DNA of 64,000 nucleotides. Source: a phage. Position 1 is the first letter of the stretch, and every line of letters begins with the position of its first letter. Positions 9,234-38,352 of the stretch are shown piece after piece. The notes beneath the pieces are model-generated. The model searched no databases. It was not told where the DNA came from and was given only the letters and a program-made list of their open reading frames with translations. The stretch lies in sequence record PZ445498.1; one strand, given 5' to 3'. The position numbers and the translations under genes were made by a program.

Positions 9234-9467
9234 TTAGGATTCTTTGAGCAAAGAAGCAAGCTCAGCATAGACTTTATCTAACTCAAAGCCAATGCGAAGA
9301 GACACACGAGTCTTCCGTTGTTTAAGTAACCATATGGAGACGTTAGGGATGCCAGCGAGACGAGGTGGTACAACCCTACATAGTTTCTCCGCGGTATCGT
9401 AAACAGAAGTTTTACGTTCTTTTACTGGAAACTTCCTTGTTTCCCACTTTTTATTCTTCACTGTCAT
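9234..9467 (-). CDS. hypothetical small basic protein
   Basis: Start placed at ATG 9467 (GGAG RBS) just after the helicase stop. Confidence 0.4.
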   Translation of the reverse strand: MTVKNKKWETRKFPVKERKTSVYDTAEKLCRVVPPRLAGIPNVSIWLLKQRKTRVSLRIGFELDKVYAELASLLKES

Positions 9468-12240
9468 TTCTAGCTCCCAATTCAGCAAGAGCTTCCTCAT
9501 GCATCTGACGTTCTTCATCTGTCATAAACTTAACTGGAATCGGCATACATTCGATCTTACAGTAAGTTCTGTACCAGTCCACAATCTTTTCCGTATCCAG
9601 ATCTTTACCGATACCCATCATGCCAAGATACATACGGGCATATTTTGGGTTAGCGCTCTGACCTGTCTTAAGGAAGAAATCCTTCTTCTTATTCTTAAGA
9701 GCTTCGATAAACGGTTTGATTGTTACATTTGAACACTTCTTGATATCTTCCCAAAACATGTCGTGCATCTTATGGAAGAATGCAGCTCTATCGTTTGGTT
9801 TATCCTTGATATACTGTTCAACGTGTTCCACTGTTACATCTTTAATAGAATCCAGATGATAATAGCGAACCAGAAGTAACTTGGCTTCATAGGCATCTGC
9901 ATGACGTGGTGCGCAATATTCAGGAGTTGAGTACAAAATAGCTTTGATTCGCTCTTCTGTATACTCTTTGCCTGCACCTTCGATAGTTCCCCAGCTTTCA
10001 CTGAAAATATCAATAGTTGCACCCTGATCAAGTAGATAATAACGCAAAGTACTAGTATAGTTTCTAGATTCCAGCTCACGACGACGTGCGTACAGTTGTT
10101 GGGCTAACTCAATCCAACCTTCGTCAATATTATACTGCTCGGAACCGGCAGAAAATCCACTCGTAGATTTATCAATAAAATAATAAATGTTCTGAGCACC
10201 ACGGTCGCGCCTGATTGCTTGAAAACGCATGTTTGGCGCTTGGTTTGAGGTTCTAGTGATTACGAATACGTTATCAAAATAGTTAAAGTCAACACCACTC
10301 GTTACAGATGGACTACATAATAAACAATCAATCTGTTGATCAATTAGCTCATTAGTTGTATAATCCAGAATACGTCGGATATCTACATCAGACGTAGAGT
10401 TTGAGTGAATTTCTTTAACTAACGCACCAGTATTACGACGTAATGCCATTCCCTTCTCATTCAGTTCATCCGGGCCACAGTCAGATACTAGGATTGATTT
10501 CTCCCCCATCTCTAAAGATGTTTGAAGTGCAACCCAAATACTGGATTCATCAGGGAATTCATAAGCATGAGCTTTCGCCAGCATTTTACGGTGGTGATTA
10601 TAAAATGCGACTGGTTTATCAAAATCAATCAAAGAACCATAGGCTTCAATCGTTTCTGCACTGATATCACCATCGGATAAGATAACAGTTTTAGCAGTAA
10701 TAAGGATATCACGAAGAACCTGAATACATTCACGACGGTTTTTAACAACCGGAGCGAATAACAGATCATTCATTACTGCGTCACATTCATCAATAAAGAT
10801 CGTATCAATCTGACCCACAAAGCTCTTGAACTTATGGATAGAGTGAATAGTTGAAGACATACGATCAATGGCACCACGTTTGAAGTTCAGCATATCAACT
10901 GACTTATCATACTGACCAGCACCGAATTTCTTCGCGTTAGAAGATACAAGTGCCCTAGTATTTGTGATTGCAATAAAGTTTCCTGGAAGAACACCTGCAT
11001 CTAGCCACTTAGTTACTGCGGTAGTTTTACCCGTACCAAGACTTGCCTTAACAAATGTTAAATGTCCTTTTGGTGGTACAATGTTAATTTTCAGGTATGG
11101 AACTTCTGGTGGAGAATCTGTGTCTAGACGTTTTAATGGTACACCTTTTAAGTTTGGTGGAATCTCACGTTTGGAGTTATTTACAAAGGCTTTGAGAGCC
11201 TGCTTACGACCGTTATTAAAGTAATCTTGAATATTACGACTATTATCTTTAGTCGTAATATACTCAGATAAAGCTGGTTTAATCTCACGTTCTAACCACG
11301 TAAAGTCAACACCATCTTCTAACGCTCTGTGATAAAGTTTTGGGATAATACGCAGGTACACTCCATCCTCAGCTTCTTCTAGTTCGCTGATGGTTTCTTC
11401 CACTTTATCAGATGCAGCCTTCTTGCCTTTAATTTGATCAAGTAAGGAGTAGAACTCTTCTTTAAACTCACCTCTAGTTGTCTCAAAGTCAACTAGGTTA
11501 TTAGGTAGATTCACCTTCGAACCCTTAACATACACAAGGCGTGGTTTATTCTCCGCTTTAAACGGATCGACTATACCATCATCAAATAAGGGATCTGCGA
11601 AATAGTGAAGCTGAACAGAAGAATAATAAGCTAAGTCAGCAATATCAAAGCCATACTTTTGCTTACTACTGTCATTGATAGATGTAAATAAGAACTTTAA
11701 CTGTCCCTGCGTTACCTTGACATTAGATTCTAGCATTAAGTGCATTCGGATACCTGGTTTTAATCCAGCCGAAGACGATGCATGGGCAATAAACCCTGCA
11801 TCAAGAGGAAACATATCCTCACTAATACTATTCAACATCTTAATAATATGACGTGCCATGCCAACAAGATTAAACTTGTCATAGCCACCAGTATCTACAA
11901 TACCATCCACGTCCATAGCAATAATATGACTAGGATTGGATACGTTAAAGTTTCCCCTGGTACGACGCACATTATCTTTTGGAGCTAAACATTTACCACG
12001 AATAGCTACAATATGCGGGTCTTTGGTAAGACGACGCATGATAGGTAACATTTCAGCAAGGTTTTGCGGGTCAAGTTCTTCAAGTACATCAAATTTGAAG
12101 GGCATGGAAGCTGGTTTACCTTCTGGATGCTCTTTAGAGAATCGCTTTGCAAAGGTGTAATCTTCCACTTTGATCTCTTTCCAGATGCCAGTGGCTTTAT
12201 CTCTGGAAAATCCTGCGTGACCTTGTAGGATTGAGAACAC
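9451..12240 (-). CDS. SF2 helicase-like protein, putative replication origin-binding helicase
   Basis: Walker A LGTGKTT and Walker B FIDECD; start placed at GTG 12240 with AGGAGT RBS; track N-terminal extension looks non-coding. Confidence 0.7.
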   Translation of the reverse strand: MFSILQGHAGFSRDKATGIWKEIKVEDYTFAKRFSKEHPEGKPASMPFKFDVLEELDPQNLAEMLPIMRRLTKDPHIVAIRGKCLAPKDNVRRTRGNFNVSNPSHIIAMDVDGIVDTGGYDKFNLVGMARHIIKMLNSISEDMFPLDAGFIAHASSSAGLKPGIRMHLMLESNVKVTQGQLKFLFTSINDSSKQKYGFDIADLAYYSSVQLHYFADPLFDDGIVDPFKAENKPRLVYVKGSKVNLPNNLVDFETTRGEFKEEFYSLLDQIKGKKAASDKVEETISELEEAEDGVYLRIIPKLYHRALEDGVDFTWLEREIKPALSEYITTKDNSRNIQDYFNNGRKQALKAFVNNSKREIPPNLKGVPLKRLDTDSPPEVPYLKINIVPPKGHLTFVKASLGTGKTTAVTKWLDAGVLPGNFIAITNTRALVSSNAKKFGAGQYDKSVDMLNFKRGAIDRMSSTIHSIHKFKSFVGQIDTIFIDECDAVMNDLLFAPVVKNRRECIQVLRDILITAKTVILSDGDISAETIEAYGSLIDFDKPVAFYNHHRKMLAKAHAYEFPDESSIWVALQTSLEMGEKSILVSDCGPDELNEKGMALRRNTGALVKEIHSNSTSDVDIRRILDYTTNELIDQQIDCLLCSPSVTSGVDFNYFDNVFVITRTSNQAPNMRFQAIRRDRGAQNIYYFIDKSTSGFSAGSEQYNIDEGWIELAQQLYARRRELESRNYTSTLRYYLLDQGATIDIFSESWGTIEGAGKEYTEERIKAILYSTPEYCAPRHADAYEAKLLLVRYYHLDSIKDVTVEHVEQYIKDKPNDRAAFFHKMHDMFWEDIKKCSNVTIKPFIEALKNKKKDFFLKTGQSANPKYARMYLGMMGIGKDLDTEKIVDWYRTYCKIECMPIPVKFMTDEERQMHEEALAELGARNDSEE

Positions 12241-12736
12241 AACAATACTCCTATGTTGGTTATTCGGATATCTTTCTTTAGGACTATTCAAAAGAATAGA
12301 ACAACTATTACTACCATTTACACAAACATTAATCATCATCAAGCAGTATGAATAAGTTATCATACCTCAGTGCTGCGCTCTCTTAACTCTTATCCAGATC
12401 AGAACCTAGGTCATTGGCCGCTAAGCCGATTCTGATTGCCCTCACTATCCTATTGGTAGGTGGCTACTGGACGTGTCACCATTCGCTGCTCTTTTCGTTC
12501 GCACCCCCATATAAAGCTCTGCCTATATAACGAGCTAAATATGCACGGTTTGGATTTACCTTTCCGAATTCAGGGTACGCAGATCACTTAATTGATAATT
12601 AACTAATGCAGTATAAACACTAGTAATAGTTAAAACAACCCTTAATGGGGCAGCCTAACTGTTCCGTATTGCGGATTGTAAACAAGAAAAATTAGCAAAA
12701 TCAATTTTTACTAATGTCTCTCAATTCAATATAAAT

Positions 12737-12765
12737 ATTATATCAAGATTTTGAGCATCCTGCAA
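12737..12765 (-). promoter_or_regulatory. early promoter (minus) with ~490 nt leader before SF2 helicase gene
   Basis: Reverse complement TTGCAG-17-TATAAT plus ATTTATATTGAATTGAGAGA leader. Confidence 0.65.
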
Positions 12766-12856
12766 GTAAAATTTTTCCGAAGGTGCTATCAGTGTCTTTG
12801 AGCACAGAGAAAACCGAGCCAAAATGACTCGGTAATCAGGATTGGGCTAACGAAAA

Positions 12857-13252
12857 TCAATCATCATTTAGACCTGGGACATAGATCCCAATGCGATTTA
12901 ATTGACCTTTAGCTTCTTCGAGAATATCTTCGGTGTACTCCCAAATATCATCTTCTACTTGCAAAAGATAAGGGGATTCACCAGTTTCGGGGTCACGTGT
13001 AATGGCTAAGCCACGTGAATGGAATATAGAGAAGTTGAGGGCAACAATCAAGCCCATGCTGGACAATTCATTCCAGTCAGCTTCCCAACCATCATCTTCA
13101 TCTTCGTCCACAAATACACCTACACTAGGGTCTGTTACAGAAGTAAACGGAAATGTTACACTAACCTTGTCAACCCCCAACCAACGTGCAAGGAGCCCCT
13201 CAGCACGCTCTACCAAACTAGGATCTATCTGACGCCAAAATACTTGTTCCAT
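12857..13252 (-). CDS. hypothetical acidic protein (paralog 1 of tandem pair)
   Basis: 131 aa; shares C-terminal ...GxY(V/M)IPGL motif with the next ORF. Confidence 0.5.
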   Translation of the reverse strand: MEQVFWRQIDPSLVERAEGLLARWLGVDKVSVTFPFTSVTDPSVGVFVDEDEDDGWEADWNELSSMGLIVALNFSIFHSRGLAITRDPETGESPYLLQVEDDIWEYTEDILEEAKGQLNRIGIYVPGLNDD

Positions 13253-13261: not shown

Positions 13262-13690
13262 TTAAGCAGTTAAACCTGGGATCATATACCCGAAACGACG
13301 AAGTTTCTGAATCCCCTCATTTACTTCCTCGGGCGAATATGACCAGCCATCACGTTCATTTACCTGGAAAGCAGGAGCTTCACCAGTGCGATAATTTACA
13401 ATAAGACGGTGATTTGCAGGCATAAACAGCTTATGATTCAAGGCAAAAACCAGACCCATTTCATCGAGTTCTTTCCAGTCTACAATCTCTTCTACTCCCT
13501 CCCCTAAATCCACGCTAACTCCAATACACGGAGCTTCCTCTAGCGGGCCTTTAAAGGATAAGAAGATATCGTTATTCTCACACCAAATCTTGAGCAGATT
13601 GATGGTTTCATTATACATACCATTAGGGAGAGAGCGCCAGAAGTTGAGAAGCATAGGATTTACCTCTTTCATGAAAATATTATTGAACAT
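13262..13690 (-). CDS. hypothetical acidic protein (paralog 2 of tandem pair)
   Basis: 142 aa; similar to 12857-13252 over the C-terminal half. Confidence 0.5.
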   Translation of the reverse strand: MFNNIFMKEVNPMLLNFWRSLPNGMYNETINLLKIWCENNDIFLSFKGPLEEAPCIGVSVDLGEGVEEIVDWKELDEMGLVFALNHKLFMPANHRLIVNYRTGEAPAFQVNERDGWSYSPEEVNEGIQKLRRFGYMIPGLTA

Positions 13691-17993: not shown

Positions 17994-18024
17994 TATACCC
18001 TCCTTCTCTAACTAAGACTACTAT

Positions 18025-18053
18025 TATAACTCATTAGAAGGCGGATGTCAACA
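18025..18053 (-). promoter_or_regulatory. sigma70 consensus promoter (minus) for nrdD
   Basis: Reverse complement TTGACA-17-TATAAT, then GGAGG RBS and ATG 17993. Confidence 0.7.
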
Positions 18054-18102
18054 ATATTTTACTATAAAGTTCTGTAACATGATCTGAGTCAAAAAATTTT
18101 AT

Positions 18103-18131
18103 TTGCCAACCTCTATTAAAAATAGTATAAT
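18103..18131 (+). promoter_or_regulatory. promoter (plus), distal of two upstream of phoH
   Basis: TTGCCA-17-TATAAT with AT-rich upstream tract. Confidence 0.6.
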
Positions 18132-18243
18132 CACGCGCCCGTGTACGCGATATAAAATGATTATCTAGTACCATACATCTCCCAATAAAAGCAAGCAAAT
18201 TTTTTATTTAAATGCAATATCATAGGCTTATTTAAAATTGTAG

Positions 18244-18272
18244 TTGCTTTCTCCCGTATATATTGGTATAAT
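18244..18272 (+). promoter_or_regulatory. promoter (plus), proximal to phoH
   Basis: TTGCTT-17-TATAAT. Confidence 0.65.
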
Positions 18273-18345
18273 ATATTTGTAAGTTGATAAACAAGATCTT
18301 TTTGTTGATCCTCTGTTAGCGAAGTACACTATAGGAGTGTTATTT

Positions 18346-19098
18346 ATGGGAAAAGCACGTCAAAAAAGAGAGAACCGCAATGGTTCAAGAAAGCGTGGCA
18401 ACAAGTATGAGAGTAACGTAATTCAAGCAGATTTCTCTGGTGATTACGCCAATCCAGTTGCTAAATCCCTAGTTGGTAAAAACCGTGAGCAAAAATCATA
18501 TATCAATATGATCAAGAACAACACAGTGACTGTGGGTATTGGTGAACCAGGTACTGGTAAAACCTTTATTCCGTCCGTTCTTGCAGCTCAGGAACTCGTA
18601 GACATTCACTCAGATATTGAGCAAGTGATCCTCGTGCGTCCGAACGAACCTCTAGGTAAATCTCTTGGTATGCTCCCAGGTGATCTGGCAGAAAAGCTAG
18701 AGCCTTGGTTGGAACCAATAGCCGATGGCATGAAATGGTCAATCGGTGATCACGCCTACAAAGGATATGTCGAACGTCAGAAAATTAAATTCCTGGCTAT
18801 CGAACATGCCCGTGGCCGAACTTTCAACAACTCCTATGTAATTGTCGATGAAGCTCAGAATATCTCCGTTGAAGCAATGATCTGTCTCTTGACTCGTGTA
18901 GGACAAGATTGTCGTTTAATTATCTGTGGGGATATAGCTCAGAAAGACATCAAGGGTGATTCAGGTCTAGCACTTCTTATGGAAGTCTATGAGAAGTACG
19001 AAAACTCTCCTTTCTCTATGATCGAACTGATCGACAACGTTCGCTCACCAGAGTCTAAAGCATTCTACGATATCTTTAAGGATATGGGGAAGGTGTAA
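18346..19098 (+). CDS. phoH: PhoH-like ATPase
   Basis: Walker A GEPGTGKT and Walker B VIVDEAQN; ATG 18346 with AGGAG RBS. Confidence 0.85.
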   Translation: MGKARQKRENRNGSRKRGNKYESNVIQADFSGDYANPVAKSLVGKNREQKSYINMIKNNTVTVGIGEPGTGKTFIPSVLAAQELVDIHSDIEQVILVRPNEPLGKSLGMLPGDLAEKLEPWLEPIADGMKWSIGDHAYKGYVERQKIKFLAIEHARGRTFNNSYVIVDEAQNISVEAMICLLTRVGQDCRLIICGDIAQKDIKGDSGLALLMEVYEKYENSPFSMIELIDNVRSPESKAFYDIFKDMGKV

Positions 19099-19099
19099 T

Positions 19100-19342
19100 A
19101 TGGGAAACGTCGTACATCTGCACCGCAAAACTAAGATCCACCGTACTTCATTGAGTGCTGCTAATATGATTACACGTAAGGAAGGGGAAGAAAGTCCTAA
19201 GACTACCCTAGCGTGGAAAATTGTAGCCTCTAATCCAAATCGGCCTTTCAACTATAATGAACTGAGTACTTCTATAGACATTCTTATGGCTAAGGAAATA
19301 CGACAGAAACTAACTGATATGACCGATAAACTTAAATGGTAA
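19100..19342 (+). CDS. hypothetical protein
   Basis: 80 aa ORF followed by terminator hairpin. Confidence 0.5.
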   Translation: MGNVVHLHRKTKIHRTSLSAANMITRKEGEESPKTTLAWKIVASNPNRPFNYNELSTSIDILMAKEIRQKLTDMTDKLKW

Positions 19343-19349
19343 GACAGAC

Positions 19350-19385
19350 GAGCCTGGGTATGAAAATATCCGGGCTCTTTTTATC
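19350..19385 (+). terminator. rho-independent terminator
   Basis: Hairpin GAGCCTGGG...CCGGGCTC followed by TTTTT. Confidence 0.6.
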
Positions 19386-19398
19386 TGTAAAATTGTAC

Positions 19399-19427
19399 TT
19401 GCAAAATGACTCAAAACAAAGTAGAAT
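19399..19427 (+). promoter_or_regulatory. promoter for nrdA
   Basis: TTGCAA-17-TAGAAT directly after terminator hairpin. Confidence 0.6.
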
Positions 19428-19465
19428 ATCTCCTAAATCCTGATAACTACAAAAAGGAAAGCCAA

Positions 19466-21799
19466 ATGAGCCATCGTATAGAAAAAGTAATTAAACGTGA
19501 CGGTACTGTTCAGGACTTTGCTCCTGAAAAACTCAATGATTGGGCTGCATGGGCATGTAAAGATACTGACGTAAGTTGGTCTGCCGTAGTTATGGCTGCC
19601 CTGAAAAATCTACCCAAAGGTGTTGTAGACTCCGATACACTCCAAGATGTGTTAATTAAAGCCGCTGAAGGTCTTATAAAAGACAATCCAGCATATGATA
19701 CTGTAGCAAAGGAATTACGTCTTGCGCAGATGCGTAAACGCCTATATGATTCCTTCGAACCACCTTCTCTGCGTTTCTTCCACGATCATATGGTTCGTGT
19801 TGGCGCTTGGGAAGACATGAGTGCATGGATTAGCGATGATCAGTTTGATGCTCTGAATCAAGTTATTGATCATGATCGCGATCGTTTATTCACTAGTGGT
19901 GGACTGAAACAGTTCTTCGACAAGTATTCCCGTCGTAATATTGCAACTGGTGAAATTTATGAAACTCCGCAGTTTGCCTACATGGGTATGGCAATGGCGA
20001 TGTTATCTCAACCTAACTGGACAATTCTAGATGCAATCGACCTCTACAATGCAATGTCGCTCCACAAAATCAACGTTCCTACGCCGCCACTGGTTGGTCT
20101 GCGCTCTAGTGACCGTGGATTTGCTAGTTGCTGCCTCGTGGATTCCACTGACACGCTGGATTCAATCGACACAGCCGAGCACATCGTCTTCAAAATGGTC
20201 GCAGCCAGAGCGGGAATCGGGTATCATCTTGAAAGCCGATCAATTGCTGATCCGGTGCGAAATGGGGCATTCCCGCATTCCGGAAAACTGCCATATTATC
20301 GACACATTGACCGATCAGTAAAAGCTAACACTCAGCAAACCCGTGGCGGTTCTGCTACTGTGTCTTATCCATACTTCGATCCTGAAATCATTCAGTTGAT
20401 GCAGGTTAAGCAGCAACGTGCTACAGACGAGAATAAAATCGATAAGATGGATTACTCTCTGAGCTTTAACAACCTTCTATTAAAACGTTACCTGAAAAAC
20501 GAAGATATTACGCTAATGTCCTACTTCTACGCACCAGAAGTTCATGAAGCGTTTTATGGCGAAGATGAGGCTAAGTTTGAAGAAATCTACGTGGCAGCGG
20601 AGAAACGTGTGGCTTCTCTTACAAAGATCGACCACGAAGGAAAAACAATTCCAGCAGCTCCTAGAATCTCTGCAAAAGAAATCCTAGATACTTGGTTACG
20701 TATCCGTATGGAAACAGGGCGTATGTATGCTCATCACATTGGTGAATCTAACCGTCATGGTAACTTCCTTGACCCGATTCGTATGACCAACCTATGTGTT
20801 GAAATTACTCAGCCAACCAGGCCATTCCATCACATTACGGAGCTGTATAAGACCCAAGATCAGTTAGATGATATGCGTCCAGAAGATATTGGCGAAGTAT
20901 CTCTGTGTAACTTAGGTGGAGTTGTACTAGGACGCATGGAATCTCTGGCTGAATGGGAAAAAACTTGCTACATTCTTCTGAAATTCGTTGATACCATCAT
21001 TGAAATTCAGGACTATCCGTTCCCTACTATGGAATACACGGCTAAGAAGCGTCGTAACGTAGGTATTGGTCTGATGAACGCAGCAGGTGCAATGGCAGCA
21101 GAAGGTCTGGCTTACGAAGGTGAAGAAGCCCGTAACTGGATTCACCGTGAAGCTGAGAAACTTTCTTACTTCCTGCATAAAGCCTCTGTACGTCTGGCTA
21201 AAGAACAAGGTGCATGTGACTGGTTTAATCGTACTAAACCATCCAAGGGGACTCTGGTAATCGACACGTATAAGAAAACTGTTGATGAACTGGTAACTGT
21301 AGATCTAGAAATGGATTGGGAATCTCTGCGTGCAGATATTCTGAAATATGGTATGCGTAACTCTGTTCTGACTGCTCAGATGCCCGGTGAAAGTTCCTCT
21401 GTACTGCTAGGTGTTACTAACTCTATCGAACCGCCTCGTAAGATTGTATCTATCAAGGGTAGTGCAGTGAATAAAGTAATTGCAATTGCTCCAGGTGCAA
21501 CTGATTGGGATACATTAATGAGTTATAAACTGGCTTATGATGTAGATCGTATCGAGTGGGTCAAATGGGTAGCAACCATGCAGAAATTCTTCAGTCAGTC
21601 TATAAGTACGAATATGTACTATGACTACACCAAGTTTGAGAATGAAATTATTCCTGGCCCAGTAGTAGTTCGTGATTTCATGACTGCTGTTAAGTACGGT
21701 TGGAAAACTTTCTACTATGCAAACTTTAACACCGAGAATGGTGGTGGTGCAGGGGAAGAAACTGCTGCTGGATGCGCATCTGGTGGTTGTCAATTATAA
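19466..21799 (+). CDS. nrdA: ribonucleoside-diphosphate reductase large subunit
   Basis: ATP-cone start MSHRIEKVIKRDG; start ATG 19466 after promoter 19399-19427 (track ATG 19406 lies inside the promoter spacer). Confidence 0.85.
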   Translation: MSHRIEKVIKRDGTVQDFAPEKLNDWAAWACKDTDVSWSAVVMAALKNLPKGVVDSDTLQDVLIKAAEGLIKDNPAYDTVAKELRLAQMRKRLYDSFEPPSLRFFHDHMVRVGAWEDMSAWISDDQFDALNQVIDHDRDRLFTSGGLKQFFDKYSRRNIATGEIYETPQFAYMGMAMAMLSQPNWTILDAIDLYNAMSLHKINVPTPPLVGLRSSDRGFASCCLVDSTDTLDSIDTAEHIVFKMVAARAGIGYHLESRSIADPVRNGAFPHSGKLPYYRHIDRSVKANTQQTRGGSATVSYPYFDPEIIQLMQVKQQRATDENKIDKMDYSLSFNNLLLKRYLKNEDITLMSYFYAPEVHEAFYGEDEAKFEEIYVAAEKRVASLTKIDHEGKTIPAAPRISAKEILDTWLRIRMETGRMYAHHIGESNRHGNFLDPIRMTNLCVEITQPTRPFHHITELYKTQDQLDDMRPEDIGEVSLCNLGGVVLGRMESLAEWEKTCYILLKFVDTIIEIQDYPFPTMEYTAKKRRNVGIGLMNAAGAMAAEGLAYEGEEARNWIHREAEKLSYFLHKASVRLAKEQGACDWFNRTKPSKGTLVIDTYKKTVDELVTVDLEMDWESLRADILKYGMRNSVLTAQMPGESSSVLLGVTNSIEPPRKIVSIKGSAVNKVIAIAPGATDWDTLMSYKLAYDVDRIEWVKWVATMQKFFSQSISTNMYYDYTKFENEIIPGPVVVRDFMTAVKYGWKTFYYANFNTENGGGAGEETAAGCASGGCQL

Positions 21800-29893: not shown

Positions 29894-30273
29894 TAATTTA
29901 AAAGACTAGTAAATCGGTAGACGAAAGCCCAAGCATCTTACCTCGCAGCAGCGGTTGAAATACGAGGTTAAATAAGACCGCTGACCATACTATAAAGTAT
30001 AATCTATTGGAGATTATGTTTATTACACCAGCCTCTTAAGCTGAACTGTAAAAACGGTCGTTGGTAGTACCAACACAACTTCAAAGATCAACGCTCAAGT
30101 ATGAAAGCTGAAAAGTTAAAAGCACTCAAACTTCTAACCTTCTAAAGCTAAAAGATGCAAAGTATTCGTTGATGATTCAAACCCTAGATCAAAGGTACAT
30201 GGCTCATAAGATATGGCCTGTGGCGCCTCTAGGCTGTTTATCGGTTTACTAGTCTCTCAATTTAAAAATGTAT

Positions 30274-30302
30274 TTGCTAATTAGTTTAGTTTTCTATATA
30301 AT
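30274..30302 (+). promoter_or_regulatory. early promoter
   Basis: TTGCTA-17-TATAAT plus TAAATTGATGAGACGAGG leader. Confidence 0.7.
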
Positions 30303-30332
30303 ATATTTTTAAATTGATGAGACGAGGCTATT

Positions 30333-31832: not shown

Positions 31833-32854
31833 ATAAATTAGAGAACAGCGAGCCGATTACGCTGAGTGAGTTTAGTGATTCCTACTAGGATAGCTATTCC
31901 ACTGAATAGAGTCGGTGAGTTTAGAATGATCACCTGTTAGAGTTCCGAGTCCAGTCCGGTATATCCGGCCAAGTGACTAGAGTAACGAATATAGGTTCGA
32001 GACTTCTTGTAAAACTCGGGAGCTGTCCCGAAACCTCGTAAACTCTTCTCTAATTTATACAAAACGATGGTTCTCAACATGAGCTAGGCACAGTGTGAAA
32101 TACGGTGCGTGTCCCAGAGGTAGAAGACTGAAGGTTGGGCTTGAGAAAACCATGTAACTTTCAACGCTGACCCGTCTAGGATGCAAGTCAAGACGTATGT
32201 ATACCACAATGCGGCGATTGTCCATCGAATAGTGGGGTGTCGAACCGACTTATGTGATAACACTGCCAGATGCTCACAGGCTGACATTGAGCTTCGCTGC
32301 TCCTTCTGGAAAGAATCGGATAACTCGGGCTTATACCGGATAAGCATTCGCTGCTGGAGTACATACTATGACGGTTCAGGAGGTACGCCGCCTGATCAGT
32401 ATTAGGTTAGAATCGAAACAGCTAAACCACGAAAGGACTGGGATGCTTGCTGAGCTACCCCTACCTGATACATGCCTCAGCTAACTTCGCATCGAAAATC
32501 GGAGGTGCGATTTAACCAGACCGCGTAACTATGAGAGTGGGAAATGGTAAACTGTATAGCTTGACTCTAACTTAGTTAGGTGGCTACAGAGCCTTAATGG
32601 GACAGTCTAGATACTTAGTGAACCGCGGATAACGCTAAGAATACTGTGAAAATACTATGGGAGTCATGACCCGGATGTTGCCCGATCGCTATAGTGGCGA
32701 ATAACCACGAAGTCACCTTGACTTAAACTGGAAGATATTGTTCGACGGAAGGGCTGAAGAGCTTAATCTGAGGGGGCTGACCCTACCTACCGCCGGGTAT
32801 CTTTAAGAGTTCTTACGAGAGTTCTTAAACATACCTAAACATTAAGGAATACTA
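31833..32854 (+). ncRNA. candidate large non-coding RNA (promoter-driven ORF-free segment)
   Basis: Consensus early promoter at 31798-31826 with no RBS or ORF for ~1 kb; stops in all frames; G+C higher than flanks. Confidence 0.3.
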
Positions 32855-33372: not shown

Positions 33373-33447
33373 CGGGGTGTAGTCTAAGGGATAGGCAGGA
33401 GTCTTCTAAATTCCTTTATGCAGGTTCGAATCCTGTCACCTCGGCCA
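33373..33447 (+). tRNA. tRNA-Arg (anticodon TCT)
   Basis: Acceptor CGGGGTG/CACCTCG, D stem GTCT/AGGC, anticodon arm GGAGT-CTTCTAA-ATTCC, T arm GCAGG-TTCGAAT-CCTGT, GCCA 3' end. Confidence 0.8.
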
Positions 33448-33480
33448 ACTTTAATAACTGTAACTAAACAAAGGAAATAT

Positions 33481-34425
33481 ATGTTTACTAAAAACACTAA
33501 AGAACTAACTTCTGAGCAAAAAGTAATTCGTACTATTAAACGTTGGGGTGTTGGTGCTGCTGTTGGTCTTGGTGCTCTTATTCTGGCTCTCAATTCCTAT
33601 ACAGTTGTTCAGGATGGTACTGTTAAGACCCAAACCTTCCTGGGTAAAGTTAGCCCTAATCCTGTATTGCCAGGCTTCCATATTGTTAACCCATTTGCTT
33701 CTTTTGATACTTTTAGTACGAAAGATATTTCCATGAAACTGGATAAACTTCAGGTGCCTAGCCAGGATAAGTTTAAGTCTACTGTTGACATTACCGTTAT
33801 GTTGCAGTTTGATGGTGCTAAAGCTCCTATGAACCGTGTTAACGCAGGTACTCAGGATCAAGCTCTGAACAAGTACGTTGAAGAGAAGATGCTGTCTACG
33901 ATTCGTGAGTTTGGTAAGTCTGTACCAAAAGCACAAGATCTGTTCGACGCTAAGATTCAGGCTCAACTGCAAACCGCTATTCAGCAAGAAGTAGAAGAGT
34001 ACGCGCGTCCTTATGGCTACACCGTTAAGCAAGTATTCCTTCAGGATATTACTCTGCCACCGGTAATCATGGAACAGGTACAGAACACTAAAGTTCGTGA
34101 AGAACAAGTTAACGCTGCAAAAGCTGAACTAGCTCGTGTTGAACAAGAAGCACAGCAGAAAGTTAAGCAAGCTGAAGCTGATCGTTCTGCTCGTGAAAAT
34201 ATGGCAGTAGCTAACGAACGTGACGCAGATGCTAAACTGTACGCAGCTAAGAAAGAAGCTGAAGCTAACGCCGCTCTGCAACGTACCATTACTCCTGAAA
34301 TGATTCGTTGGAAGCAGCTGGAAGTTGAAATGCTTCGTGCTGAAAAATACCAAGGTGGTGTACCGCAGACTGTTGTTGGTACTGGCTACGATGGTCAAAT
34401 GATCATGGATATGCGTAACAAGTAA
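33481..34425 (+). CDS. SPFH/band-7 (prohibitin/HflK-like) membrane protein
   Basis: N-terminal TM anchor then PHB-like domain and long coiled-coil; start ATG 33481 (track ATG 33418 lies inside the tRNA). Confidence 0.7.
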   Translation: MFTKNTKELTSEQKVIRTIKRWGVGAAVGLGALILALNSYTVVQDGTVKTQTFLGKVSPNPVLPGFHIVNPFASFDTFSTKDISMKLDKLQVPSQDKFKSTVDITVMLQFDGAKAPMNRVNAGTQDQALNKYVEEKMLSTIREFGKSVPKAQDLFDAKIQAQLQTAIQQEVEEYARPYGYTVKQVFLQDITLPPVIMEQVQNTKVREEQVNAAKAELARVEQEAQQKVKQAEADRSARENMAVANERDADAKLYAAKKEAEANAALQRTITPEMIRWKQLEVEMLRAEKYQGGVPQTVVGTGYDGQMIMDMRNK

Positions 34426-34448
34426 TAGTTACACGTAATCTTCGAACC

Positions 34449-34485
34449 AAGCCCGCGTTCCCTCCGAGAGCGCGGGCTTTTCTGT
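34449..34485 (+). terminator. rho-independent terminator after SPFH gene
   Basis: Hairpin AAGCCCGCG...CGCGGGCTT followed by TTTCTG. Confidence 0.65.
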
Positions 34486-34629
34486 ATTTAAGGCAAAAGA
34501 AAAGCCCATAAGTTATTCAACTAAGGTCTTTAGTATTTAATTCTTTAGAATCGCATACTATTGTTGCTGCAACAACGTGCTACCATTAAATGCCCTGAGA
34601 TTTTTCCACTAAAAAGTTTAAAAATTCGT

Positions 34630-34658
34630 TTGCTTGAATGCTAAATTCTCTGTATAAT
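34630..34658 (+). promoter_or_regulatory. early promoter for nadR-pnuC
   Basis: TTGCTT-17-TATAAT plus TTATAAATTTGAGAGAGGAATC leader. Confidence 0.75.
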
Positions 34659-34688
34659 ATATTTATAAATTTGAGAGAGGAATCAAAC

Positions 34689-35744
34689 ATGATTAAGACT
34701 GGTCTAGTAATTGGTAAGTTCGCACCCTTAACGCGTGGCCATATTAACCTAATAAATACAGCAGCAACTATGTGTGAACGAGTTATTATTGTAGTTAGTC
34801 ATGATAATCGTTGGCTGGATAAGCAGAACACACGTGATCAGGAAGTATTACAGTTAAAGAATCGTCTTCGTTGGTTAGAACAAACTTACGCGGATATTGA
34901 GCACGTTTCGGTAGAGTATATTATTGAAGATGATATTCCTGAATATCCGAATGGTTGGCCGGAATATGCTAGAATCCTTAATGAAAATTACGGACATTTA
35001 CCTGAGATCACCATTTTCTCTAGCGAACTAGACTATGATGCAGAATATAAGAAATATCTGCCGAAGTTTGGTCATTATATTGTAGATTCTGATCGGACTC
35101 GTGTTCCAATCTCAGCTACAATGATTCGTAATGATCTTATGAAGTATTGGGAGTTTCTTCCTAGCGTAGTTCGTAAAGATTACGTGCGTAGGGTTGTAAT
35201 CATTGGGACTGAAAGCTCAGGAAAGACTACTTTAACAAAATACCTTGCGAAGCTATACAACACTTCGTGGGTAGAAGAATATGGTCGAACGTATTGTGAA
35301 GTTGATCTAGTTGGTAACGAAAATCTGCTTACCAGCGAAGATTATAGTAAAATTGCGTTCAGACACAAAGAGCTAGAGTTTGAGGCAGAACGTACTGCAA
35401 ATAAGATCATGTTTGTGGATACAAATGCTTTTATTACTGAGTTCTACCACAGACTTTATGAACATCGTAAGAACCCTGTGGTTACAGCAATTGCAAAAGA
35501 AGAACATTACGATTTAGTAATTGTTCTAGCGCCCACTGTCAAGTGGGTAGATGATGGTTTACGTATTAACTCCGATCGTTCAATTACTTCTGAACTGTTC
35601 GAGCAGATGAAGAAAGAATTTCCAAATCAGTTCCCTGAAGGGCGTACTGTGTACATCGACTCCCCGGACTACAAAGTTCGTATGGACGAAGCAGTAAACG
35701 CAGTAGACTGGCTGATTCATCACTTTAACGTTGGAGAGTTTTAA
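34689..35744 (+). CDS. nadR: NadR-like bifunctional NMN adenylyltransferase / ribosylnicotinamide kinase
   Basis: Nucleotidyltransferase motif GKFAPLTRGH, ISATMIR motif, C-terminal P-loop GTESSGKTT. Confidence 0.8.
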   Translation: MIKTGLVIGKFAPLTRGHINLINTAATMCERVIIVVSHDNRWLDKQNTRDQEVLQLKNRLRWLEQTYADIEHVSVEYIIEDDIPEYPNGWPEYARILNENYGHLPEITIFSSELDYDAEYKKYLPKFGHYIVDSDRTRVPISATMIRNDLMKYWEFLPSVVRKDYVRRVVIIGTESSGKTTLTKYLAKLYNTSWVEEYGRTYCEVDLVGNENLLTSEDYSKIAFRHKELEFEAERTANKIMFVDTNAFITEFYHRLYEHRKNPVVTAIAKEEHYDLVIVLAPTVKWVDDGLRINSDRSITSELFEQMKKEFPNQFPEGRTVYIDSPDYKVRMDEAVNAVDWLIHHFNVGEF

Positions 35745-35745
35745 T

Positions 35746-36423
35746 ATGACTAACTATCTCGTAAATGACTTTAAAAACTGGAAACCTCTGGAATATCTGT
35801 GGCTGTTCATAGCGGTTGCCTTCATTAGTTTAGCTAACTATAATGGTACACCTCTAGATTGGGCTACTGCGATAACCAACGTAGTTTGTGTTATTTTGGT
35901 TGCTAAAGGACGTGTTTCTAACTATATTTGGGGCTTAGTTGGTGTTCTTACCTATGGTATTACAGCTTTAAACGCAGATCTTTATGGTAACGCTGCACTA
36001 AACCTGCTATACTACGTTCCTATGCAGTTTTATGGAATGTACTTATGGCATAAAAATAAGCCAAGTAATCTGCCAGATGTTCCAACTAAGATTCTGACTA
36101 AAGTCCAAGCTCTGCTGACTCTAGGGATTCTAGCAGTAGCCACGTTAGGGTATGGTAGTTTCTTAGCTACTACGGCTGATCCATTCCCAATGTTGGATGC
36201 ATTTACTGCGGTAGGTAGTGTGATCGCTATGTGGCTTATGGTTAAGCAGTATGCCGAGCAGTGGCTGATCTGGATTGCTATTAACATTGGTACTGTGTAC
36301 ATTTGGCTTGTAACTACTCAATCTACAGGTGCATCTTATGCAATCCTAGCAATGTGGCTAGTATTCTTAGGTAACTCTATTATGGGAGCCTATAAAGGAT
36401 ACTTTGTACGCGTTAACAAATAA
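35746..36423 (+). CDS. pnuC: PnuC-like nicotinamide riboside transporter
   Basis: Multi-pass membrane protein with PnuC-like ...LYYVPMQFYGMYLW... region; translationally coupled to nadR. Confidence 0.75.
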   Translation: MTNYLVNDFKNWKPLEYLWLFIAVAFISLANYNGTPLDWATAITNVVCVILVAKGRVSNYIWGLVGVLTYGITALNADLYGNAALNLLYYVPMQFYGMYLWHKNKPSNLPDVPTKILTKVQALLTLGILAVATLGYGSFLATTADPFPMLDAFTAVGSVIAMWLMVKQYAEQWLIWIAINIGTVYIWLVTTQSTGASYAILAMWLVFLGNSIMGAYKGYFVRVNK

Positions 36424-36431
36424 AGTAGTTA

Positions 36432-36458
36432 TAGCCCTCTAAGCGAGGGCTATTATAC
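36432..36458 (+). terminator. rho-independent terminator after pnuC
   Basis: Hairpin AGCCCTC-TAAGC-GAGGGCT followed by ATTATA; T-run weak. Confidence 0.55.
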
Positions 36459-36470
36459 AGAAATTTTCAC

Positions 36471-36499
36471 TTGCTTAATATAGAAAATTTCTATATAAT
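36471..36499 (+). promoter_or_regulatory. early promoter
   Basis: TTGCTT-17-TATAAT plus TTATAAATTCGAGAGAGGAATC leader. Confidence 0.75.
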
Positions 36500-36529
36500 A
36501 TATTTATAAATTCGAGAGAGGAATCAAAC

Positions 36530-36826
36530 ATGAAACGCATTGTACTTGCACTGACTCTAGTATCTACTTCTGTATTTGCTGCTCCGCAACAGGAACTTTG
36601 TCAAGTTCAGGTTTGTAATAAGTTAGAACGATTTACTTTGGATATTTGGTCACACATTAAAGATAATATGGGTGAACAGTGTTTTGATATTGTTCTGCCA
36701 AAAGAGCAGGCTGTTCCTGGTGCTATTCTTAGCTCAGAGTCACGTTGGTGGCAGGGTTCTTCTATCAATCCAACTAAGAAGTCAGTGACACGTATCAAAC
36801 AAGTATATCAGTGCAAGGTTCAGTAA
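36530..36826 (+). CDS. hypothetical secreted protein
   Basis: Signal peptide MKRIVLALTLVSTSVFA; 98 aa. Confidence 0.5.
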   Translation: MKRIVLALTLVSTSVFAAPQQELCQVQVCNKLERFTLDIWSHIKDNMGEQCFDIVLPKEQAVPGAILSSESRWWQGSSINPTKKSVTRIKQVYQCKVQ

Positions 36827-36834
36827 AATTTCAC

Positions 36835-36863
36835 TTGCTTAATGTCGAAATTTTCTGTATAAT
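36835..36863 (+). promoter_or_regulatory. early promoter for HNH gene and first tRNAs
   Basis: TTGCTT-17-TATAAT plus TCATAAATTCGGAAGATTAGG leader. Confidence 0.7.
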
Positions 36864-36896
36864 ATATTCATAAATTCGGAAGATTAGGAACTATTT

Positions 36897-37406
36897 ATGC
36901 TAGACTATGAGTCTATACTTTATAGATTCCGTTTAGAAGATGGTGTGCTGGTGTGGAATCCGCTCTCCGGAAACTCCAGAGAGGAGAAGATATTTAATAC
37001 TAAGTTTGCCAATAAACCTGCGGGATCTTTGCACAAAAGCTCTGGGTATATCAGAGTTAACGTTGATCACCAAGATTACTTAGCTCATATCATAGTATTT
37101 ATACTATATTATGGGTATAGGCCGGAAATGATTGATCATAAAGACTGCAATAAGTTAAACATACATCCTTTAAATTTAAGAGCAGCGGATAGTACCACTA
37201 ATACTCATAATGCTAGTAAATCTTCTAGGAATACTAGCGGATTTAAGGGAGTATCCTACCACAAAGCATCTGGTCAGTGGCAGGGTAGAATAATGTTTAA
37301 AGGTAAGTCATACTCCGCAGGGCTGCACAGTACTCCTGAAGCAGCAAATGAAGCTCTAATTCAACTGAGAGAGAAACTTCATGGGGAATACGCCCGAAAT
37401 AATTAA
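36897..37406 (+). CDS. HNH homing endonuclease with AP2-like domain
   Basis: Paralog of 21899-22417 (IDHKDCNKLN, GEYARNN tail); directly upstream of the tRNA cluster. Confidence 0.7.
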   Translation: MLDYESILYRFRLEDGVLVWNPLSGNSREEKIFNTKFANKPAGSLHKSSGYIRVNVDHQDYLAHIIVFILYYGYRPEMIDHKDCNKLNIHPLNLRAADSTTNTHNASKSSRNTSGFKGVSYHKASGQWQGRIMFKGKSYSAGLHSTPEAANEALIQLREKLHGEYARNN

Positions 37407-37495: not shown

Positions 37496-37500
37496 AATTT

Positions 37501-37578: not shown

Positions 37579-37595
37579 ATTAACTAGGAGACTAT

Positions 37596-37781: not shown

Positions 37782-37782
37782 C

Positions 37783-38115: not shown

Positions 38116-38124
38116 AGATTACAT

Positions 38125-38201: not shown

Positions 38202-38216
38202 AATTAAGGAAATAAA

Positions 38217-38339: not shown

Positions 38340-38352
38340 CTGGAGAAAACAA

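What the first reader, a model, noticed from the sequence alone, without database searches (positions are those of the whole stretch)
12241..12856. 600 bp ORF-free region with long leader upstream of the SF2 helicase gene
Between the helicase start (GTG 12240) and the next upstream gene there is no credible ORF. A minus-strand early promoter (12737-12765) would make a ~490 nt 5' leader, far longer than other leaders in the window (20-30 nt). The region is G+C-richer and has several inverted repeats (for example 12405-12470). It could be a regulatory or stable RNA, or a DNA-level site such as a replication origin, sitting next to a putative origin-binding helicase.
Basis: partly seen in the sequence, partly recalled or inferred. 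Interest (0 to 1): 0.6.

Follow-up and report, generated by a model that had tools for sequence, protein, structure and literature searches.

The report
Structured leader RNA before T5 helicase
The "empty" 616 bases in front of the T5-type D2 replication helicase gene encode a large, intricately folded RNA that is conserved in shape across T5-like phages and matches no described RNA family. Its function is still unknown.

Summary
Window 12241-12856 has no conserved ORF. It starts with the upstream operon's terminator, followed by an extended -10 early promoter, and ends at the RBS and GTG of the D2 (SF2, UL9-like) helicase.

The gap is a structured RNA on the gene-sense (minus) strand:
- a 5' hairpin;
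- a near-invariant 25-nt block;
- a ~40-bp AU-rich helix (P1) closing a 218-nt, 48% GC core of two three-way junctions, with invariant loops (GCUUAGCGGC, GAGAAGUG);
- a small hairpin, then the RBS.

Evidence for the fold:
- In unambiguous alignments of close relatives, 9 base pairs changed on both sides, against 0-1 when partners are slid.
- A covariance model built only from T5/Epseptimavirus sequences finds full-length cores, at the coordinates I had defined by hand, in four other sequence types. A sequence-only model from the same seed finds only one of them, phiR2-01.
- The sense strand folds 30 kcal/mol better than the antisense strand.

No Rfam family matches. There are no iterons, no antisense promoter and no GC-skew turn here, so a classical origin is not supported.

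Function is inferred. Most likely this is an RNase III-processed leader module that binds a protein and controls D2 expression. A released trans-acting RNA or a primer/origin RNA remain open.

The parts
12813..12833 (-). Intrinsic terminator of the upstream (DUF7415) operon: ACCGAGTCATTTTGGCTCGGT followed by TTTCTCT.
   Evidence: Terminator scan. Identical in T5, DT57C and phiR2-01. Annotated as a terminator at the homologous site in T5 AY543070.
12737..12765 (-). Early sigma-70 promoter: -35 TTGCAG (12765-12760), 17-nt spacer ending in TG, -10 TATAAT (12742-12737). The inferred start is about 12730.
   Evidence: Sequence. A promoter is annotated at the homologous place in T5. It carries the ATATT discriminator of T5 early promoters (PMC7472727). 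A promoter is present at this position in all sequence types. In phage bobsandoy it is swapped for another promoter while the RNA is kept. The start site is inferred, not mapped.
12675..12730 (-). SL1: 5'-terminal extended hairpin (GAGAGA/UUUCUU plus AUUAGUAAAA/UUUUGCUAAU).
   Evidence: MFE folds of nine sequence types all put a long hairpin of different sequence at the 5' end. Helix 1 is 97% paired, with one double change, in close relatives. The TTGAGAG part may belong to the promoter's transcribed region (own knowledge of T5 promoters).
12645..12669 (-). CS1: near-invariant 25-mer AUACGGAACAGUUAGGCUGCCCCAU. It is followed by a small local hairpin reaching to 12633.
   Evidence: 24 of 25 bases are identical in Pectobacterium phage My1, although the surroundings do not align. 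It is recognisable in Sugarlandvirus, L039 and L063. It is unique in the window. No significant pairing with the RBS region was found.
12592..12632 (-). P1 5' strand: long AU-rich helix that closes the core.
   Evidence: 38 pairs, 95.7% paired, with a C:G to U:A double change in close relatives (helix 4). Flank-to-flank duplexes of 31-48 pairs occur in all 11 sequence types; z is -4.8 to -8.2 in eight of them and -0.2 to -2.3 in Sugarlandvirus, L063 and Providencia.
12370..12587 (-). Core, 218 nt, 48% GC. P2 is GUG-AU-CUGCG / CGCAG-CAC. The 5' domain (12577-12502) is helix P3 closing a three-way junction with hairpins P3a and P3b. The linker carries CS2 (GAAUGGUG here, GAGAAGUG in most types; 12484-12477). 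The 3' domain (12472-12392) is P5 closing a three-way junction with P6 (12464-12438) and P7 (12436-12398).
   Evidence: Core length is 212-231 nt in all types. Independent folds of the 5' domain give the same topology in ten types; folds of the 3' domain give P5 enclosing P6 and P7 in most. Covariation. Covariance model R1 finds full-length cores in other types. The sequence-only control R3 finds only phiR2-01.
12416..12427 (-). Invariant P7 loop motif GGCUUAGCGGCC. CUUAGCGG is present in every enterobacterial T5-like type.
   Evidence: An exact 8-mer was found upstream of the helicase gene in all 39 enterobacterial loci examined and in none of the 9 Vibrio or marine loci. It is flanked in each type by complementary strands of different sequence (helix 10).
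12345..12366 (-). P9 hairpin between P2 and the P1 3' strand.
   Evidence: G:C to A:U double change between the window type and the T5 type (helix 15). A hairpin is seen at the same place in the other types by inspection.
12302..12342 (-). P1 3' strand.
12284..12299 (-). Small conserved hairpin CUAUUC-UUUU-GAAUAG just before the RBS region.
   Evidence: The sequence is nearly identical (one loop base differs) in the window, T5, DT57C and phiR2-01 despite divergent flanks. Sugarlandvirus has CUAUC/GAUAG. The pairs are invariant in close relatives, so the helix is untested there (helix 16).
12238..12252 (-). Shine-Dalgarno AGGAG (12252-12248) and GTG start codon (12240-12238) of the D2 helicase gene (9451-12240).
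   Evidence: Pfam PF02399 matches residues 391-533, as described for T5 D2 (PMC3632103).

Best explanation
Shown: the region encodes, on the gene-sense strand, a conserved and highly structured RNA of about 490 nt. It lies between a strong early promoter and the D2 replication-helicase gene, so it forms the 5' leader of the D2 transcript. Its centre is a self-contained module. A ~40-bp AU-rich helix (P1) closes a compact 218-nt GC-rich core of two three-way junctions. The core has a few invariant loop and linker sequences.

Inferred mechanism:
1. P1 is long enough to be cut by host RNase III.
2. Cutting would separate the 5' part (SL1 and CS1), the folded core and the D2 message.
3. That would set the 5' end, and so the stability and translation, of the D2 mRNA.
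4. The invariant loops (GCUUAGCGGC, GAGAAGUG, UAG..AGG) and CS1 are most simply read as contact sites for a protein. Candidates are D2 itself, another early phage protein or a host factor.
5. The module would thus tie D2 production, or the start of replication, to that factor.

Only the existence, strand, architecture and conservation of the RNA are demonstrated. Processing, the binding partner and the regulatory outcome are inference.
For: Fold, close relatives:
- Unambiguous alignment of 17 close relatives: 97% of cells paired. Nine pairs changed on both sides (in SL1, P1, P2, P5o, P5, P6, two in P7, P9), against 0-1 with slid partners.
- A second, independent set (DT57C type) has double changes in P2 (two pairs), P3 and P6.

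Fold, across types:
- Cross-type alignment of 5 types: 90% paired. 45 of 64 pairs have double changes, against 8-15 when slid. Covariation score is 0.39 against 0.05-0.10.
- Model R1, seeded only with window/T5-type cores, finds full-length cores at my hand-defined coordinates in phiR2-01, the DT57C types, L039 and Sugarlandvirus (E 1e-28 to 8e-3), and in L063 (E 0.018).
- The sequence-only model from the same seed finds only phiR2-01.

Strand:
- The sense strand folds at -105.6 kcal/mol (z -5.5), the antisense at -75.1 (z -2.8).
- 16% of pairs are G:U.

Linkage to D2:
- The order terminator, promoter, RNA, D2 is seen in every enterobacterial T5-like lineage examined, even where the upstream genes differ.
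- No terminator lies between the RNA and D2 in the window, L039 or the Proteus phage, the three loci scanned.
- A homing-endonuclease insertion replaced the promoter but left the RNA joined to D2 under a new promoter.

P1 length: 38 pairs in the window type and 31-48 pairs in other types. About two helical turns suffice for E. coli RNase III (established knowledge).
Against: - I found no transcript, processing or binding data for this region in the literature held.
- A 218-nt double-junction core is far more elaborate than known RNase III leader sites need to be.
- In Proteus phages a perfect consensus promoter sits between the RNA and D2, and in L039 a 10-of-12 match does. D2 can therefore probably be expressed without the leader there.
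- No conserved pairing between the RNA and the RBS was found (z about 0).
- The core behaves as an exchangeable cassette between otherwise near-identical phages. That fits a specificity determinant or a conflict-driven element at least as well as a housekeeping regulator.
Confidence: 0.42

Rival explanations
1. Trans-acting stable RNA. The P1-closed module is a gene for a non-coding RNA: an RNP component, ribozyme, or decoy/sponge for a host factor or defence system. It is released from the early transcript by cleavage in P1, much as rRNAs are released from their processing stems. Its position before D2 would be synteny, not regulation.
For: - The size, the two-junction architecture, the constant core length (212-231 nt) and the invariant loops resemble autonomous structured RNAs.
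- A long processing-type stem encloses exactly the unit that is exchanged between lineages.
- It has a strong early promoter of its own.
- Separate promoters for D2 exist in Proteus phages and L039.
- Cassette-like replacement of the core suggests diversifying selection, as expected in host-phage or phage-phage conflict.
Against: - No terminator or other defined 3' end was found in the three loci scanned.
- In the one pattern scan of 2.9 million viral contigs that I could filter with the model, it was never found away from a D2 gene. Only T5-like genomes passed.
- No similarity to any Rfam family, and none to E. coli DNA that would suggest mimicry.
Confidence: 0.3
2. Replication-initiation element. 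Either the transcript acts as a primer or R-loop RNA, like ColE1 RNA II or the T4 oriF/oriG transcripts, or the same strand as single-stranded DNA forms hairpins that load the adjacent D2 helicase. On this reading the region would be, or would belong to, an origin.
For: - It lies directly next to the UL9-like helicase proposed as a replication initiator (PMC3632103; Pfam PF02399).
- It has a strong promoter about 490 nt upstream and an AT-rich stretch (33% GC) just downstream of that promoter.
- In T5 the site lies at 59.0-59.5 kb of 121.75 kb, the middle of the genome. Old electron microscopy reported internal origins (cited; their location near the centre is from my memory only).
- RNA II-type primers are also structured. 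Their loops diversify as specificity determinants, which would fit the cassette behaviour (own knowledge).
Against: - No iterons or other repeated binding sites.
- No antisense promoter inside the leader for an RNA I-like regulator.
- The cumulative GC-skew minimum is about 6 kb away, at 18-20 kb.
- Recombitron editing of T5 showed a strand bias interpreted as dominant unidirectional replication from one genome end (PMC10055335).
- Two UUCG tetraloops in the Providencia version favour RNA over DNA hairpins (own reading).
Confidence: 0.15
3. The region is protein-coding after all. Either it is an N-terminal extension of the helicase starting at ATG 12363 (as annotated in Salmonella phage Sw2), or it holds small unannotated genes.
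For: - In the window the frame stays open 42 codons upstream of the GTG and contains ATGs.
- The Sw2 record annotates the ATG start and a 33-aa ORF.
Against: - In T5 a 1-nt indel breaks the extension.
- The other eight sequence types have no start codon in it, and the frame is open for only 0-26 codons in T5 and seven of those types.
- The small ORFs overlap the terminator and promoter, or change mostly non-synonymously, and are absent in other types.
- The substitutions come as base-pair compensations, not as codon-position patterns.
Confidence: 0.01
4. Non-functional spacer or decayed mobile DNA. For example, it could be the scar of homing-endonuclease traffic, with hairpins arising by chance.
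For: Insertions are tolerated in the region: a 97-nt module in 51 phage records and a homing-endonuclease cassette in some phages.
Against: - Compensatory changes, a conserved topology and conserved core length across genera, and z-scores far beyond shuffles.
- The insertions sit outside the P1-closed module.
Confidence: 0.02

Closest known systems
RNase III-processed leaders and intergenic stems of phage early transcripts (T7 R0.3-R1.3 sites, lambda N leader) and rRNA processing stems
   Same: A long double-stranded stem in an early phage transcript, placed between the promoter and a gene. In the rRNA case, the stem encloses a folded RNA that is released by cleavage.
   Different: Known phage RNase III sites are single irregular hairpins of about 50-60 nt. 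Here the stem encloses a conserved 218-nt two-junction core with invariant loops. Cleavage has not been shown.
ColE1 RNA II primer, and the T4 oriF/oriG and T7 phi1.1 origin transcripts
   Same: A promoter several hundred nucleotides upstream, a structured or AT-rich transcribed region, and a location next to replication functions. In RNA II, the fold matters and the loops diversify.
   Different: There is no antisense RNA I-type promoter, no identified hybrid-forming or RNase H site, and no independent evidence of initiation here. The GC-rich multi-junction core has no counterpart in those origins.
Large orphan structured RNAs often linked to phages or prophages (GOLLD, ROOL, HEARO/omega RNA, raiA, OLE)
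   Same: A large, multi-junction RNA supported by covariation, with unknown biochemical function, encoded by mobile or viral DNA.
   Different: No Rfam model for any of these matches. This RNA is smaller (about 330 nt with P1), is restricted to T5-like phages, and always lies directly upstream of one gene.
Cis-acting processive antitermination RNAs (HK022 put, EAR) and tandem-junction riboswitches (for example glycine)
   Same: Promoter-proximal structured RNA at the head of a long operon. The architecture is two three-way junctions joined by a short linker.
   Different: No sequence or model match. No terminator or sequestered RBS that an expression platform would act on was found. It is much larger than put.

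Membership tests
Any described RNA family (Rfam 15: riboswitches, ribozymes, RNase P, tmRNA, 6S, group I/II introns, GOLLD, ROOL, HEARO, raiA, put and others) | A covariance-model match at or near the family's gathering score. | tested here: not met
   Permissive search (E up to 10) of the region: only two chance-level hits, neither inside the structured RNA (one in the helicase gene, one across the terminator). Eight loci of other sequence types: nothing in the leader. Whole window at gathering score: tRNAs only.
RNase III processing stem | About two or more helical turns (20 bp or more) of mostly uninterrupted double-stranded RNA. | tested here: met
   P1 has 38 pairs, 95.7% paired, in close relatives. 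Duplexes of 31-48 pairs occur in all 11 types, with z as low as -8.
RNase III processing stem | Cleavage by RNase III in vivo or in vitro. | not testable with these tools
   Needs end mapping in wild-type against rnc hosts, or an in vitro cleavage assay.
Iteron-type or initiator-box replication origin | Several repeated binding sites for the initiator. | tested here: not met
   Only four two-copy repeats of 9-20 nt, at 70-100% identity, of the kind expected by chance.
Iteron-type or initiator-box replication origin | A compositional turn (GC-skew inflection) at the site. | tested here: not met
   Cumulative GC skew falls steadily through 12.2-12.9 kb. Its minimum is at about 18-20 kb. Skew is confounded by transcription direction, so this is weak evidence.
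ColE1 RNA II-type primer | A promoter a few hundred nt upstream that gives a structured transcript. | tested here: met
   Promoter at 12765-12737, followed by a leader of about 490 nt with structure supported by covariation.
ColE1 RNA II-type primer | An antisense regulator RNA (RNA I) transcribed from the opposite strand within the 5' part. | tested here: not met
   No plus-strand promoter-like site inside 12241-12856. The only one in the scan is at 12902-12930, inside the upstream gene.
ColE1 RNA II-type primer | A persistent RNA:DNA hybrid and RNase H cleavage at the origin. | not testable with these tools
   Needs R-loop mapping or an in vitro replication assay.
Terminator-based riboswitch or attenuator | An intrinsic terminator, or an RBS-sequestering helix, between the aptamer and the gene. 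| tested here: not met
   No terminator downstream of the promoter in the window, L039 or L041. CS1-to-RBS pairing is no better than shuffles.
Protein-coding gene or N-terminal extension of D2 | An open reading frame and start codon conserved in relatives. | tested here: not met
   The extension is broken by a frameshift in T5 and lacks a start codon in 8 other types. The small ORFs are not conserved.
New T5-like 'D2-leader' RNA family (defined here) | P1-closed core with P2, two three-way junctions, a GAGAAGUG linker and a GCUUAGCGGC loop in P7, upstream of a D2 homologue. | tested here: met
   The window is the seed. Full-length model hits in phiR2-01, the DT57C types, L039, Sugarlandvirus and L063. 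My1 (E 0.48) and Providencia (E 0.32) are only top-of-locus hits at the expected place. Proteus phages are assigned by the motif and hand-identified P2 and P7 helices only.

The most novel reading that the evidence does not exclude
The P1-closed module is a previously unrecognised class of phage RNA. It would be cut out of the early transcript and work with the D2 helicase (or its uncharacterised 390-residue N-terminal domain) at the start of T5 DNA replication, as a primer, loader or specificity RNA, or as a decoy against a host system. Its cassette-like replacement between otherwise near-identical phages would then reflect selection for distinct specificities, comparable to incompatibility determinants of RNA-regulated replicons.
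Probability: 0.3. Interest if true: 0.85.

Novelty: new variant of a known kind. Interest (0 to 1): 0.66.

Why it matters
T5 is a classic model phage, yet its replication origin(s) and the control of its replication genes are still undefined. This RNA is large and shaped by strong selection. It sits in front of the helicase thought to start T5 replication. It is present in T5-like phages of Escherichia, Salmonella, Klebsiella and Yersinia, and probably in those of Pectobacterium, Providencia and Proteus. It is annotated in none of the records examined here.

The finding gives a concrete, mutable target with predicted helices and invariant loops. With it one can ask how D2 expression or replication initiation is controlled, and whether T5 makes a stable non-coding RNA.

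It also corrects gene calls in some records (the ATG 12363 start and a 33-aa ORF). If the module turns out to act in trans or in priming, it would be a new functional RNA class.

Tried and rejected
- Rfam at permissive thresholds, on the window and on eight other loci: no family.
- tRNA/tmRNA scan: nothing in the region.
- BLAST of the P1-closed module against 5,426 E. coli genomes for possible mimicry: no match.
- Direct-repeat search for iterons: nothing convincing.
- CS1 pairing with the RBS region as a translational switch: energies equal to shuffles. Helix 2 (GCAAUAC/GUAUUGU) exists only in Markadamsvirinae.
- A resemblance of CS1 to the RNase P CR-V region, and of the P7/P6 loops to the 23S rRNA GTPase-centre sequences, came from memory. 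I dropped both: the order of elements differs and no Rfam model matches.
Structure-aware MAFFT modes are not installed.
- A model of the 3' domain alone was too weak to separate true hits from noise.
- A pattern scan of 2.9 million viral contigs for GAGAAGTG-N50-70-GCTTAGCGG gave 38 loci. Only four, all on T5-like genome contigs, passed the model.
- The metagenome scan added only one new sequence type, L063.
- Literature searches found no description of this RNA. The library lacks most subscription journals, including the T5 genome paper and Bourguignon 1976.
Full report
**Where we are.** The window is an Epseptimavirus-like relative of phage T5; 901 bases around the finding are 99.9% identical to Salmonella phage UTK0009.

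Genes here run on the minus strand. The gene that starts at GTG 12240 (9451-12240, 929 aa) carries Pfam PF02399 (Herpes_ori_bp) at residues 391-533. That is the feature described for the T5 D2 bipolar SF2 helicase (Wong et al., PMC3632103).

The two genes upstream (12857-13252 and 13262-13690) are DUF7415 paralogues.

**Checking the observation.**
- The gap 12241-12856 is 616 bp. It is the largest stretch without any ORF of 45 aa or more on either strand outside the tRNA array.
- The upstream operon ends in an intrinsic terminator at 12833-12813.
- Next comes TTGCAG-17-TATAAT (12765-12737) with a TG extended -10. The simple scanner missed it because its -35 has only 3 of 6 matches.
- The T5 GenBank record annotates a terminator and a promoter at the homologous positions. 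The ATATT after the -10 is the mark of T5 early promoters (PMC7472727).
- The leader is therefore about 490 nt long.
- The region as a whole is not GC-rich (37.7% against 39.8% for the window). Its centre, 12370-12587, is (48.2%), and the flanks are 30-33%.
- The inverted repeats noted at 12405-12470 are hairpins P6 and P7 described below.

**Not coding.** The frame stays open upstream to ATG 12363 in the window, and one record (Sw2) uses that start.
- In T5 a 1-nt indel fills that frame with stops.
- None of the eight other sequence types has a start codon in the extension.
- The GTG/ATG start gives a 2790-nt CDS, as annotated in DT57C, phiR2-01, T5_ev219 and Sugarlandvirus; T5 AY543070 is annotated at 2787 nt.
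- The small ORFs in the gap overlap the terminator and promoter, or change mostly non-synonymously, and have no counterpart in other types.

**Conservation.** A gap of 590-716 bp between a terminator-promoter pair and the D2 homologue is present in the following:
- T5, DT57C and phiR2-01;
- Klebsiella Sugarlandvirus;
- Pectobacterium phage My1;
- Providencia and Proteus phages;
- two unnamed lineages (L039, L063).

By BLAST only the ends of the gap and a few short islands are shared. The islands are:
- a 25-mer, ATACGGAACAGTTAGGCTGCCCCAT (CS1), identical at 24 of 25 positions in My1;
- GAGAAGTG;
- CTTAGCGG, an exact 8-mer found in all 39 enterobacterial loci and in none of the 9 Vibrio or marine ones.

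**The structure.** Reading 5' to 3' on the minus strand:

| Element | Window coordinates | Description |
|---|---|---|
| SL1 | 12730-12675 | extended 5' hairpin |
| CS1 | 12669-12645 | near-invariant 25-mer |
| P1 | 12632-12592 with 12342-12302 | 38-bp helix, about 26% GC |
| P2 | ends of the core | GUG-AU-CUGCG with CGCAG-CAC |
| 5' domain | 12577-12502 | P3 closes a three-way junction with hairpins P3a and P3b |
| P4 | between the 5' domain and the linker | small, weak hairpin |
| Linker (CS2) | 12484-12477 | GAAUGGUG here, GAGAAGUG in most types |
| 3' domain | 12472-12392 | P5 closes a three-way junction with P6 and P7 |
| P7 loop motif | 12427-12416 | invariant GGCUUAGCGGCC |
| P9 | 12366-12345 | hairpin between P2 and the P1 3' strand |
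| Small hairpin | 12299-12284 | conserved CUAUUC/GAAUAG |
| RBS and start | 12252-12238 | AGGAG, then GTG |

The core measures 212-231 nt in every type. Independent minimum-energy folds of the 5' domain in ten types give the same topology from different sequences; folds of the 3' domain give P5 enclosing P6 and P7 in most of them.

**Is the structure real?** Four tests that do not depend on my hand alignment:

1. *Close relatives.* Seventeen window-type and T5-type sequences are 92-100% identical, so their alignment is unambiguous.
   - 97% of cells are paired.
   - Nine pairs changed on both sides: P1, P2, P5o, P5, P6, two in P7, P9 and SL1.
   - Sliding the 3' partners by 1-3 columns gives 0-1 such pairs.
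   - The DT57C-type group adds independent double changes in P2 (two pairs), P3 and P6.
2. *Covariance model.* Model R1 was built only from window-type and T5-type cores.
   - It finds full-length (1-218) matches at the coordinates I had defined by hand.
   - The hits are phiR2-01 (97 bits), the DT57C types (E about 1e-6 to 1e-4), L039 (E 0.006) and Sugarlandvirus (E 0.007).
   - With filters off it finds L063 at E 0.018.
   - Providencia (E 0.32) and My1 (E 0.48) are only the best hits of their loci at the expected place.
   - Proteus phages are not found.
3. *Sequence-only control.* A model from the same seed without structure, run on the same sequences, finds only the window and phiR2-01, even at E up to 10. 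The structure term is therefore what retrieves the other types.
4. *Cross-type alignment made by the model.* 90.3% of cells are paired. 45 of 64 pairs show double changes, against 8-15 when slid. The covariation score is 0.39 against 0.05-0.10. This alignment is fitted to the structure, so it leans towards it.

Nine different but always complementary versions of P2 were seen.

**Which strand?** The sense strand of the P1-closed module folds at -105.6 kcal/mol (z -5.5). The antisense strand folds at -75.1 (z -2.8). 25 of 160 pairs are G:U, which would be A-C mismatches on the other strand. The structure therefore belongs to the transcript, or to the same strand as single-stranded DNA.

**What it is not.**
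- No Rfam family matches, even at E up to 10, in nine sequence types.
- There are no iterons.
- There is no antisense promoter inside the leader.
- There is no terminator between the promoter and D2 in the window, L039 or the Proteus phage.
- There is no significant pairing between CS1 and the RBS.
- There is no similarity to E. coli DNA.
- The cumulative GC-skew minimum of the window lies near 18-20 kb.
- A published editing experiment reports a strand bias in T5 consistent with replication mainly from one genome end (PMC10055335).

These points weigh against a classical origin at this site. They do not exclude a primer or R-loop RNA.

**How it probably works.** The following is shown: a strong early promoter drives a conserved, compactly folded RNA that runs into the D2 gene. 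Its central module is enclosed by about four turns of AU-rich duplex.

The following is inferred.
- E. coli RNase III cuts duplexes of two turns or more, and AU-rich stems lack the G-C antideterminants (established knowledge). P1 should therefore be cleaved.
- Cleavage would release the core and define the D2 mRNA 5' end.
- The few invariant single-stranded sequences, set on helices that vary freely, look like contacts for a protein.
- I therefore favour a processed, protein-binding leader module that sets D2 expression (confidence about 0.4).

The main rival is a stable RNA acting in trans (0.3). It is favoured by the complexity of the core, by a separate perfect promoter for D2 in Proteus phages, and by the cassette behaviour. 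T5-type and DT57C-type phages share about 95% identical flanks and the base of P1, but their cores cannot be aligned.

A primer or origin RNA working with D2 gets 0.15.

**Distribution.** One pattern scan of 2.9 million viral contigs, filtered with the model, recovered only T5-like genomes. The family appears confined to Demerecviridae that infect Enterobacterales.

Vibrio T5-like phages have a comparable promoter-led, ORF-poor stretch of 650-700 nt before their D2 homologue. It too has conserved ends and an unrelated centre, but it gives no model hit.

**Novelty and verdict.** In the library available to me I found no description of this RNA. None of the phage records I opened annotates an RNA feature here, and two records annotate ORFs over it.

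Its kind (a structured, probably processed leader or non-coding RNA) is known. This particular architecture, and its link to the replication helicase, are new. Its function remains to be shown.

Noticed in passing
L003:1655-1751 (phiR2-01); the equivalent insertion point in the window is about 12684 (minus strand): A 97-nt optional module sits between SL1 and CS1 in DT57C, phiR2-01 and others, and duplicates the TTTTTCTT at its insertion point. It occurs once per genome in 51 phage records at 95-100% identity, higher than the identity of its flanks between those lineages. It contains an 8-bp hairpin, ATTTACGG/CCGTAAAT. It may be a mobile mini-insert or an extra RNA domain.
   Followed up: partly
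L073:445-1090 (Salmonella phage bobsandoy): A homing-endonuclease cassette, with its own terminator and promoter, replaces the terminator and promoter upstream of the RNA. The RNA from SL1 onward is untouched and is driven by a different promoter, the one also seen in L019 and L022.
   Followed up: yes
window 12302-12632 compared with L024 and L004 (DT57C type): The upper part of P1 plus the core behaves as an exchangeable cassette. Phages with about 95% identical SL1, CS1, base of P1 and 3' hairpin carry cores that BLAST cannot align. The DT57C-type core shares motifs with distant lineages (L063, L039, My1).
   Followed up: partly
L010:1205-1920, L049:1752-2420, L051:1750-2430 (Vibrio T5-like phages): These phages also have a promoter-led stretch of 650-700 nt (41-51% GC) before the D2 homologue. 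It has few or no sense-strand ORFs, although small ORFs are annotated in Quinn. L049 and L010 share the first 160 nt (95%) and the last 32 nt, but the centres are unrelated. Model R1 gives no hit, so this may be an analogous or very diverged RNA.
   Followed up: partly
L041:1700-2503 (Proteus phage): The leader is 764 nt long and has two perfect 12-of-12 sigma-70 consensus promoters, one before the RNA and one 40 nt before D2. A second GCCTTAGCCG motif lies closer to the gene, so the module may be duplicated in tandem.
   Followed up: partly
window 12241-12363 and 12721-12822 (minus strand): The GenBank record of Salmonella phage Sw2 starts the helicase at the ATG equivalent to 12363 and annotates a 33-aa ORF across the terminator and promoter. 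Neither is conserved in relatives, so both are probably misannotations.
   Followed up: yes
window 9451-12240 (minus strand), residues 1-390 of D2: The N-terminal 390 residues have no Pfam match and no convincing PDB sequence match. The invariant residues D110, D112 and H167 in an alignment spanning five genera resemble primase-polymerase motifs. This is untested.
   Followed up: partly
window 29894-30332 and 32406-32854: Two further stretches of about 440 nt are free of any ORF of 45 aa or more on either strand. They lie outside the main tRNA array and have no Rfam or tRNA hit.
   Followed up: no
window about 18000-20000: The cumulative GC skew of the window has its minimum here, and a 343-nt gap free of ORFs of 60 aa or more lies at 17994-18336. 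I presume this is where transcription direction switches.
   Followed up: no
window 33373-46582: There are 26 tRNA genes on the plus strand according to ARAGORN, and Rfam confirms 25 of them. This is the usual T5-type tRNA array.
   Followed up: no
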